From an uncultured Chloroflexia bacterium (GTDB lineage: Bacteria > Chloroflexota > Chloroflexia > QHBQ01 > JADMIH01): a stretch of DNA of 64,000 nt. Of the stretch, positions 52,267 to 52,575 are shown one piece after another. The DNA lies in the NCBI GenBank assembly GCA_963797095.1, contig CAWCNY010000005.1, positions 96,001-160,000 of the forward strand. Direction: 5' to 3'. The stretch's first letter is position 1; every line of letters starts with the position of its first letter. The notes below the pieces were generated by a model that was not told the origin of the DNA, did no database searches, and saw only the letters and a program-made list of their open reading frames with translations. The translations under genes were made by a program, and so were the position numbers.

Positions 52267-52486
52267 GTGATGACTCCGCATGGCGTAAACGCCAGCAGCT
52301 TCTACGGTTTTGCACCGATGCATACTCATCCATATGCCATTAAGGTTGCACTATAGGAGACACCTAAGATGCTTTTACGCTGCACAAGGGTTTCGTGCAA
52401 CAACCCGCTAACATCTTGCATTATCAAAGTGCGGACTACTACCCGAAGGCAATAGTGGCGTGTAGCATTGGTTAGCTTCCACGTTA
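52267..52486 (-). ncRNA. Candidate TnpB-type omega (right-end) RNA scaffold
   Basis: Downstream of TTGCTC-18-CATAAT; stems include ACTATTGCC-UUCG-GGTAGTAGT, GCTAAC/GTTAGC, GTTGCAC/GTGCAGC, GCATAT/GTATGC, CGGT/ACCG; ends at the right-end TCAC. Confidence 0.6.
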
Positions 52487-52575
52487 CTTCAATTATGCGA
52501 CAAAGGAGAGACTATGAGCAACCTTTTATCAGCCGAACCACAGCCCATAAATGGGCATGGCTTTCAAGGTTTTCT
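52267..52575 (-). mobile_element. Non-autonomous IS200/IS605-family mini-element (no tnpA/tnpB ORF)
   Basis: - strand: target TTAC|left end AGAAAACCTTG-AAAG-hairpin CCATGCCCA-TTTA-TGGGCTGTGG ... right end GAAG-hairpin CTGCTGGCG-TTTA-CGCCATGCGG-AGTCA-TCAC|; no target duplication; removing it restores PEGIIVRVQNP. Confidence 0.88.

What the first reader, a model, noticed from the sequence alone, without database searches (positions are those of the whole stretch)
52267..52575. Protein-less IS200/IS605 mini-transposon with intact guide/cleavage-site code
Seen: an exact 309-bp insert with no target duplication. On the - strand it follows TTAC, the left hairpin is preceded by AAAG, the right hairpin is preceded by GAAG, and the element ends in TCAC. 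Known: IS608 TnpA uses guide AAAG to select TTAC and GAAT to select TCAA, so the same pairing rule predicts GAAG with TCAC. Inference: both ends are still competent, so a Y1 TnpA in trans could excise it seamlessly.
Basis: partly seen in the sequence, partly recalled or inferred. Interest (0 to 1): 0.8.

Follow-up and report, generated by a model that had tools for sequence, protein, structure and literature searches.

The report
Protein-less IS605 mini-transposon carrying guide RNA
This 309-bp insert is a protein-less passenger of an IS200/IS605 transposon family that still has working-looking ends and also carries its own small structured RNA gene of the kind that guides the TnpB nuclease; this is a known kind of element, seen here in good detail.

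Summary
Window 52267-52575 (- strand) is an exact 309-bp insert that splits a Uma2-family gene. It follows TTAC, ends in TCAC, and has AAAG and GAAG just 5' of its two hairpins. The genome holds 8 full copies (99.4-100% identical); 6 of 8 follow TTAC, and none has a target duplication. Paralogous empty sites for one copy show a seamless insertion. A complete tnpA-tnpB IS605-type element with related ends lies in the same genome, so mobilisation in trans is plausible.

It holds a conserved TATAAT-like box followed by a roughly 220-nt structured RNA that runs to the right end. RNAalifold predicts 46 pairs, 30 with compensatory changes. Its 3' module, including a covarying pseudoknot at -7..-3 just before the element end, matches the 3' ends of tnpB genes in this genome and in 6 of 80 tnpB loci from other phyla. 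It is therefore a TnpB omega-RNA whose guide would be the flanking DNA. An 85-nt central domain occurs only in protein-less elements (0 of 108 tnpB loci examined).

PATEs that encode omega-RNAs are already noted in the literature, so this is a new member of a known kind. Expression and activity are untested.

The parts
52576..52579 (-). Target / left cleavage tetranucleotide TTAC in the flank; it would also serve as the TnpB TAM.
   Evidence: TTAC precedes 6 of 8 full copies, the 86% variant, the 97-bp mini copy, the parent IS and the C1:22k tnpB element. It also precedes 4 of 5 readable copies in a same-genus genome.
52267..52575 (-). The whole 309-bp protein-less element (PATE).
   Evidence: 8 full copies at 99.4-100% identity. 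No ORF longer than 33 aa lies wholly inside.
52561..52564 (-). Left guide tetranucleotide AAAG, directly 5' of the hairpin foot and 11 nt after the cleavage point.
   Evidence: Sister elements with AAGA follow TTAT in 4 of 4 cases.
52538..52560 (-). Left subterminal imperfect hairpin with a TTTA loop and an unpaired T.
   Evidence: DNA fold, (-6.1 kcal/mol, z -0.67). The stem is kept by compensatory changes in the parent IS and in relatives.
52492..52497 (-). -10-like box, CATAAT here and TGGTATAAT / TGGTACAAT in relatives. A weak -35-like TTGCTC lies at 52516-52521.
   Evidence: Alignment consensus; relatives. The consensus promoter scan did not call it. Its function is inferred.
52267..52485 (-). 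Predicted roughly 220-nt structured RNA (omega-RNA scaffold), from about 7 nt after the -10 box to the element end.
   Evidence: Top strand folds at z -3.09; the other strand at z -1.09. With 13 diverged sequences, 30 of 46 pairs show double compensatory changes.
52348..52432 (-). Central RNA domain: closing helix GCAC/GUGC, invariant GGGUU and GUAAAA, and an inner covarying hairpin. Found only in protein-less elements.
   Evidence: It is absent at the tnpB-linked hits, where 68-82 model positions are replaced by 8-46 nt.
52320..52337 (-). Hairpin 'P-A' (my label). Its loop GAUGA (52326-52330) is the 5' strand of the pseudoknot.
   Evidence: helix 96% paired, 4 of 5 pairs with double changes.
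52305..52317 (-). Hairpin 'P-B' (my label).
   Evidence: 93.3% paired, 2 of 4 pairs with double changes.
52299..52302 (-). Right guide tetranucleotide GAAG, part of the invariant GTAGAAGC.
52276..52298 (-). Right subterminal imperfect hairpin with a TTTA loop and an unpaired T. It is also the last stem of the RNA.
   Evidence: -6.5 kcal/mol, z -0.99; 7 of 9 pairs with double changes.
52269..52273 (-). 3' strand of the pseudoknot (UCAUC, positions -7..-3 from the element end).
   Evidence: 98.7% of cells paired, 3 of 5 pairs with double changes. The layout holds in 6 of 6 cross-phylum tnpB-linked elements (one of them read by eye).
52267..52270 (-). Right cleavage tetranucleotide TCAC, the last four bases of the element.
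52247..52266 (-). Flank that read-through transcription would turn into the guide. Together with TTAC it equals the empty donor site.
   Evidence: Sequence. The role is inferred from the TnpB model in PMC10055086.
52135..52266 (+). Upstream piece of the interrupted Uma2-family gene.
   Evidence: Pfam PF05685, profile positions 11-41. Maps to residues 57-98 of the G017 homologue.
52576..52944 (+). Downstream piece of the interrupted Uma2-family gene.
   Evidence: Pfam PF05685, profile positions 59-171, E 3.4e-19. Maps to residues 98-219 of the G017 homologue.

Best explanation

Mobility. It is moved as single-stranded DNA by a Y1 TnpA supplied in trans, most likely by the tnpA-tnpB IS605-type element at C3:1052786-1054449 or its left-end-less twin on C1. 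TnpA binds the two subterminal hairpins. The 4-nt guides 5' of each hairpin (AAAG, GAAG) select the cleavage sites (TTAC in the left flank, TCAC at the right tip). The element therefore excises seamlessly and inserts 3' of TTAC without a duplication.

Cargo. The interior is an RNA gene: a -10-type promoter box followed by a roughly 220-nt structured RNA that ends at the right tip and reads on into the flank. The RNA's 3' module consists of two hairpins, the right-end hairpin, and a pseudoknot at -7..-3. This is the omega-RNA scaffold of the TnpB clade encoded by the parent. With TnpB in trans, each copy would make a guide that matches its own empty site (TTAC plus right flank). Excised sites would then be cut and re-filled by recombination.

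Shown: anatomy, copy family, seamless insertion, a parent with related ends, RNA covariation, and homology of the 3' module to tnpB 3' ends.

Inferred: transcription, TnpA action on these ends, TnpB binding and cutting.
For: Copies and ends:
- 8 full copies at 99.4-100% identity with identical ends; 6 of 8 follow TTAC; all 8 end in TCAC; no duplication.
- Seamless insertion is shown by the Uma2 halves and by three colinear empty paralogues.

Parent:
- The parent IS has an intact 129-aa TnpA and 357-aa TnpB, TTAC|LE with AAAG, and an RE with GAAG...TCAC.

IS608 rule:
- Read in passages of PMC3201880: cleavage occurs 3' of TTAC and TCAA, the guides sit 5' of each hairpin foot, and T-4 and A-2 are shared by both sites. 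Both sites here keep T-4 and A-2.
- Guide and target co-vary between subfamilies: AAAG with TTAC, AAGA with TTAT in 4 of 4.

RNA:
- The top strand folds at z -3.09, the other strand at z -1.09.
- 30 of 46 pairs have double changes across 13 sequences.
- The core model R1, built without the RE hairpin, finds 17 PATE-type loci in 6 Mb. Apart from the internally deleted 97-bp mini copy (C6:415008, 23.2 bits), its only other hits are at the 3' ends of tnpB genes on the tnpB strand.
- 6 of 80 tnpB loci from other phyla hit at the same place.
- Pseudoknot: 98.7% of cells paired, 3 of 5 pairs with double changes, 0 of 500 shuffles reach the observed covariation score, and slid controls fall to 27-56% paired. 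It holds in 6 of 6 cross-phylum tnpB elements.
- The layout matches the ISDra2 omega-RNA, which has a pseudoknot at -5..-3 before the guide and a last stem with a UUUA loop (PMC10097598 passages).
- Meers et al. state that PATEs often encode omega-RNAs that need TnpB in trans (PMC10055086 passages).
Against: - 2 of 8 copies follow GTAC or CAAC, not TTAC.
- The hairpin DNA energies are within the range of shuffles.
- The parent's hairpin stems differ from the insert's. Its LE is only 84% alike, and BLAST did not detect its RE. Cross-mobilisation is therefore assumed, not shown.
- The consensus promoter scan did not call the proposed promoter in this copy. Its only call in the region is at chance level: 1 found against 1.1 expected.
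- The 85-nt central domain has no counterpart in any tnpB-linked RNA examined: 0 of 8 own loci, 0 of 20 and 0 of 80 loci. Recognition of this longer RNA by the resident TnpB is therefore unproven.
- In five other genomes that carry the long RNA, none of 20 tnpB loci matched the model at all.
- Covariation cannot separate an RNA fold from a fold of the top-strand single-stranded DNA.
- No Rfam family matches.
Confidence: 0.75

Rival explanations
1. The element is only two transposon ends with inert filler between them: a plain MITE-like deletion derivative with no cargo function.
For: It is short and protein-less. An internally deleted 97-bp derivative exists at C6:415027-415123, so the interior can be lost.
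Against: The interior is conserved, with compensatory base-pair changes, across seven diverged families in this genome and in other genera and families of the class. Filler would not keep 30 of 46 pairs through double changes.
Confidence: 0.05
2. The conserved interior fold acts as single-stranded DNA during TnpA transposition, for example in transpososome assembly, and not as an RNA.
For: The transposed strand is the same strand that shows the fold. G-T pairs are also possible in DNA. IS608's left end has a second 3' hairpin whose deletion reduced complex formation (PMC3201880 passages).
Against: A conserved -10-type box sits at a fixed distance upstream. The 3' module and its pseudoknot are shared with the 3' ends of tnpB genes across phyla, where the omega-RNA is known to lie (PMC10097598). 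TnpA is known to need only the subterminal hairpins, guides and cleavage sites.
Confidence: 0.07
3. The RNA is expressed but works without the TnpB nuclease. It could be a regulatory or antisense RNA, or a guide for a domesticated TnpB-like protein, and the PATE-specific central domain carries that function.
For: The central domain is found only in protein-less elements: 0 of 108 tnpB loci examined. It is conserved across families of the class. In five genomes that carry it, none of 20 tnpB loci matched the model. Read-through from this copy would be antisense to the Uma2 gene.
Against: The pseudoknot and the last stem abut the element tip exactly as in TnpB guide RNAs. All genomes checked that carry the RNA also carry tnpB and Y1 tnpA, 5 of 5. 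The near-identical copies point to recent selfish spread rather than a host function.
Confidence: 0.12

Closest known systems
IS608 of Helicobacter pylori (IS200/IS605 family; Y1 TnpA, 'peel and paste')
   Same: - Subterminal imperfect hairpins at both ends.
- Insertion 3' of TTAC with no duplication.
- 4-nt guides directly 5' of each hairpin foot. The left guide AAAG and the left site TTAC are identical.
- T-4 and A-2 are kept in both cleavage sites.
- The right site lies about 9-10 nt 3' of the foot (PMC3201880 passages).
   Different: - The right site is TCAC with guide GAAG. The passages I read show only that it begins G-A.
- The left cleavage point is 15 nt from the foot, not 19.
- This element encodes no protein.
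Palindrome-associated transposable elements (PATEs) of IS200/IS605, as noted in Geobacillus stearothermophilus by Meers et al. 2023 (preprint PMC10055086)
   Same: - Minimal non-autonomous elements with family-type left and right ends and no protein gene.
- Said to 'often encode omega-RNAs' that need TnpB in trans (passages).
- Multiple copies alongside autonomous and tnpB-only elements.
   Different: - This is a different lineage. The nearest TnpB relatives lie in MAGs labelled Chloroflexia.
- The RNA has its own conserved -10 box and an 85-nt central domain not seen at tnpB-linked loci.
- I did not see the paper's figures or supplements, so I cannot say whether its PATEs show the same features.
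ISDra2 TnpB omega-RNA (reRNA) of Deinococcus radiodurans
   Same: - The RNA ends at the transposon right tip, and the guide is the flank.
- The last stem has a UUUA loop.
- A pseudoknot uses the bases just before the guide: -5..-3 there, -7..-3 here (PMC10097598 passages).
   Different: - There is no detectable sequence similarity.
- The 5' strand of the pseudoknot lies in a hairpin loop about 60 nt upstream rather than about 100 nt.
- The target/TAM is TTAC rather than TTGAT.
- Here the RNA stands alone with its own promoter instead of overlapping tnpB.

Membership tests
IS200/IS605 transposon ends | Subterminal imperfect palindromes at both ends and no terminal inverted repeats | tested here: met
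   DNA folds. The stems are kept by compensatory changes. The two ends are unlike each other.
IS200/IS605 transposon ends | Insertion 3' of a fixed tetranucleotide, with no target duplication | tested here: met
   TTAC precedes 6 of 8 full copies; the 2 exceptions are GTAC and CAAC. The insertion is seamless against paralogues and a homologue.
IS200/IS605 transposon ends | 4-nt guide 5' of each hairpin foot that matches its cleavage site by the IS608 rule | tested here: met
   AAAG with TTAC and GAAG with TCAC. The AAGA subfamily follows TTAT in 4 of 4. The rule itself comes from PMC3201880 passages.
IS200/IS605 transposon ends | A Y1 (HUH) TnpA with related ends available in the cell | tested here: met
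   PF01797 gives 4 hits in the genome. The parent IS has a 129-aa TnpA, and its LE is 84% like the insert's.
IS200/IS605 transposon ends | Excision and integration catalysed by TnpA | not testable with these tools
   Indirect signs only: near-identical dispersed copies, and two internal deletions that start exactly at the TTAC|LE cleavage point.
PATE (protein-less IS200/IS605 derivative) | Family-type ends and no protein-coding gene | tested here: met
   No ORF longer than 33 aa lies wholly inside. PF07282 and PF01797 searches of the genome give no hit at any copy.
TnpB omega-RNA | Structured RNA on the tnpB strand that ends at the right tip, so that the flank becomes the guide | tested here: met
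   Conservation and pairing run to the last bases. The orientation is the same as tnpB in the parent.
TnpB omega-RNA | Homology to the RNA at the 3' end of tnpB genes | tested here: met
   Met for the 3' module only. R1 hits 4 of 8 own tnpB loci (18.8-28.8 bits) and 6 of 80 loci from other phyla, all at the tnpB 3' end. The central domain is not matched at any of these loci.
TnpB omega-RNA | Pseudoknot formed by the bases just before the guide | tested here: met
   98.7% of cells paired, 3 of 5 pairs with double changes; holds in 6 of 6 cross-phylum elements.
TnpB omega-RNA | Expressed and bound by TnpB, and directs cutting next to the TAM | not testable with these tools
   This needs RNA sequencing, pull-down and interference assays.
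Any Rfam family | Match to a curated covariance model | tested here: not met
   In window 51800-53000 the only match is a chance miRNA hit at E 6.5.

The most novel reading that the evidence does not exclude
The element is a guide-RNA-only hyperparasite of IS605 elements. It borrows TnpA for movement and TnpB for retention, and it has evolved its own promoter and an 85-nt RNA domain. That domain is conserved across several families of one bacterial class and is absent from every tnpB-linked omega-RNA examined. The extra domain may let the orphan RNA out-compete the resident omega-RNA for TnpB, or it may give the RNA a TnpB-independent role.
Probability: 0.25. Interest if true: 0.6.

Novelty: new member of a known kind. 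Interest (0 to 1): 0.4.

Why it matters
This is a clean natural example in which all the DNA and RNA signals of the IS200/IS605 life cycle sit on 309 bp without any protein. The signals are two hairpins, two guide/cleavage pairs, a promoter box, and a complete guide-RNA scaffold with its pseudoknot. It also shows a natural guide/target co-variation between sister subfamilies: AAAG with TTAC and AAGA with TTAT. It gives a compact substrate for testing trans-mobilisation by TnpA and trans-use of an orphan omega-RNA by TnpB. It also raises the question of why protein-less copies carry an RNA domain that tnpB-linked copies lack. None of this overturns current understanding.

Tried and rejected
- Rfam scan of window 51800-53000 at E up to 10: only a chance miRNA hit.
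- Consensus promoter/terminator scan of 52000-52900: 1 promoter-like site against 1.1 expected, not the one I propose; 0 terminators.
- Sequencing runs: no RNA holder listed. Three soil-metagenome DNA runs were laid. Short contigs carry the element, and one bridges the 52266/52267 junction, so the same insertion is present. No joint showing an empty site was seen. X3 laid nothing. These runs may be the source sample, so they are not independent support.
- Search for a tnpB-linked copy of the long RNA:
  - R1 over 8 own tnpB loci.
  - R1 over 20 tnpB loci of five other genomes: 0 hits.
  - R1 over 80 tnpB loci from the search for related loci: 6 short-form hits, 0 long-form.
  - ORF contexts of 14 distant RNA hits read by eye. 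Only one, L098, had a TnpB-like ORF upstream, and it was short-form. That ORF was not checked with Pfam.
- R1 over 151 genomes of the phylum found hits only in the window's own class.
- The idea that the 5'-truncated copy starting near the predicted RNA start is a retro-copy was rejected. Its 3' end is exactly the TCAC tip and its junction reads TTAC.
- I looked by eye for a coding remnant of tnpB inside the insert. A GACAG motif resembles the RuvC-III codons, but PF07282 gives no hit at any PATE locus.
- A full-length RNA model (220 positions) could not be built because of the time limit.
- Supplements of the cited papers were not seen. They may list PATEs and omega-RNA models comparable to this one.
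- Print check: searches found the PATE/omega-RNA statement only in Meers et al.; I found no paper that describes this lineage.

Full report
**The observation**

On the - strand the window reads ...CTCTTAC | AGAAAACCTTG AAAG [hairpin] ... GTA GAAG [hairpin] GGAGTCATCAC | GATAATTCC....

A search of the window's own genome (6.0 Mb, 8 contigs) finds several forms of the element:
- Eight full-length copies: three at 100%, four at 99.7%, one at 99.4%.
- Two 5'-truncated copies, running from positions 44 and 92.
- One 86% variant.
- One internally deleted 97-bp mini copy.
- Several more diverged relatives.

All eight full copies share the same first and last bases, have unrelated flanks, and show no flanking repeat. 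Six follow TTAC, one follows GTAC and one follows CAAC. All end in TCAC.

**The insertion is seamless**

The + strand ORF pieces on either side match consecutive parts of Pfam Uma2: profile 11-41 for the 44-aa piece and 59-171 for the 122-aa piece. In an uninterrupted homologue from a same-genus genome they map to residues 57-98 and 98-219.

For copy C1:64443, three paralogous genes in the same genome align colinearly across the junction with no base gained or lost.

**A parent exists**

Pfam Y1_Tnp gives 4 hits in the genome and the TnpB zinc-ribbon family gives 8. Two 1564-bp tnpA-tnpB elements are 99.9% identical to each other. The C3 copy is complete. It follows TTAC, has AAAG 5' of a left hairpin whose stem differs from the insert's by compensatory changes, and its right end reads TAGAAGC-hairpin-...GTAGTCAC. 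Its TnpA (129 aa) and TnpB (357 aa) are open, and the usual motifs are present by eye. The C1 copy lacks the left end but could still supply proteins.

The IS608 rule was checked in passages of PMC3201880:
- Cleavage is 3' of TTAC, which lies 19 nt 5' of the left foot.
- TCAA lies 10 nt 3' of the right foot.
- The guides are the four bases 5' of each foot.
- T-4 and A-2 are common to both sites.

Here the distances are 15 and 9 nt. Both sites keep T-4 and A-2, and the changed last base of the right site (C) is matched by G in the guide. A second subfamily in this genome has AAGA in place of AAAG and follows TTAT in 4 of 4 elements. This is a natural guide/target co-variation. In a same-genus genome, 4 of 5 readable copies follow TTAC 11 nt before AAAG; the fifth is unclear.

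**The interior is an RNA gene**

The top strand folds far better than shuffles (-109.7 kcal/mol, z -3.09). The other strand does not (z -1.09).

Seven diverged families in this genome, plus copies from two same-genus genomes, share the interior at 60-65% mean column identity. RNAalifold predicts 45 pairs with 28 doubly compensated on 8 sequences, and 46 pairs with 30 doubly compensated on 13 sequences.

A TATAAT-like box lies about 7 nt before the conserved RNA start. It reads CATAAT in the window copy, TGGTATAAT in most relatives, and TGGTACAAT in other families. The simple promoter scan does not call it in this copy. No terminator-like site follows.

**It is an omega-RNA**

I built a covariance model of the core without the right-end hairpin (R1). 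In the 6-Mb genome it finds 17 PATE-type loci (107-168 bits). Its only other hits are the 97-bp mini copy and the 3' ends of tnpB genes, on the tnpB strand:
- C2:1033911-1034017 at 28.8 bits.
- The parent and its twin at 19.1 bits.
- C1:22090-22191 at 18.8 bits.

I then used a TnpB alignment to fetch 80 tnpB loci from one genome per species. The nearest relative (68%) lies in a MAG labelled Chloroflexia. The others are 42-52% identical and come from many phyla, including archaea. Six of the 80 hit R1, again exactly at the tnpB 3' end.

The shared module is two hairpins, GUAGAAG, the right-end hairpin and an 11-nt tail. The variable bases at -7..-3 of the tail are complementary to the loop of the first hairpin in every lineage. 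On 15 sequences, including three tnpB-linked ones:
- The pseudoknot is paired in 98.7% of cells, with double changes in 3 of 5 pairs.
- The whole module is 93.5% paired, against 72.6% in shuffles.
- 0 of 500 shuffles reach the observed covariation score.
- Slid controls fall to 27-56% paired.

Two sequences were left out of that count because MAFFT misaligned them. By eye they also pair. The same layout holds in 6 of 6 cross-phylum tnpB elements, with four different complementary pairs (one read by eye).

ISDra2's omega-RNA likewise has a pseudoknot using -5..-3 just before the guide, and a last stem with a UUUA loop (PMC10097598 passages).

**What differs**

An 85-nt central domain (52348-52432) is well conserved with compensatory changes in this genus and in other families of the class. 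R1 hits 14 of 151 genomes at class level, and only same-class genomes at phylum level. At every tnpB-linked hit the domain is replaced by 8-46 nt. It was not found at any of the 108 tnpB loci examined.

The distant long-form loci are themselves PATE-like. All five such genomes checked carry tnpB and Y1 tnpA.

**Mechanism**

TnpA supplied in trans excises the top strand between TTAC| and TCAC| and reinserts it 3' of another TTAC. The element's own promoter makes the scaffold, which reads into the flank. TnpB supplied in trans would then use that flank as a guide and TTAC as the TAM. It would cut the empty site left by excision, so that recombination restores the copy. This is the model of Meers et al. 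(PMC10055086 passages), who also note that PATEs often encode omega-RNAs.

The anatomy, the homology and the covariation are shown. Expression, TnpA action and TnpB use are inferred.

**Verdict**

The element is a new member of a known kind. Its more interesting side is a self-promoted orphan guide RNA with a domain of its own.

Noticed in passing
G000:C3:348102-348367 and G000:C5:636573-636790 (outside the window): Two 5'-truncated copies start at element positions 44/45 and 92/94. They lie in unique DNA, and both junctions read TTAC. The deletions therefore begin exactly at the TTAC|LE cleavage point. The second ends just after an internal TAAC. They look like TnpA-made internal deletions at pseudo-sites.
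   Followed up: partly
window about 52036-52140 (+ strand): Besides the insertion, the Uma2-family gene seems frameshifted. An ATG-started frame (MATQYAQ...) stops near 52134, and the Uma2 frame continues in another frame from 52135. The homologue has about 54 more N-terminal residues. This could be a pseudogene or a homopolymer error.
   Followed up: partly
L092, L104, L109 (G055) and L091 (G087), left boundaries of distant long-form elements: In 4 of 4 loci the element's left edge abuts, on the opposite strand, the same GGAGTCTT Shine-Dalgarno-like motif, followed 4-5 nt later by the ATG of a divergent gene (a glycerol-kinase-like gene in L091). The element may carry an outward-facing ribosome-binding site, or it may insert at start codons.
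   Followed up: no
G000:C3:477873-478005 and C3:449535-449644, next to two copies (outside the window): An unrelated, partly palindromic repeat of about 110-150 bp, with well over 60 copies across the genome, lies within 24-140 bp of the right flank of two of the eight copies.
   Followed up: no
G000:C6:415027-415123: A 97-bp internally deleted derivative. It has TTAC, a left end with a damaged hairpin fused to the loop of the first 3' hairpin, and an intact right end. It lacks the promoter box and the central domain.
   Followed up: partly
G000:C2:1032877-1034048 (L045): A 388-aa intact-looking TnpB reads through the two RNA hairpins and the right-end hairpin. The element ends TCTC instead of TCAC, and its left hairpin is truncated. 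It is probably immobile but is a possible TnpB source.
   Followed up: partly
G055:C5:2360240-2360335: A weak remnant of the TnpB zinc-ribbon C-terminus (23.9 bits, below the cut-off) lies directly 3' of the right end of a long-form element.
   Followed up: no
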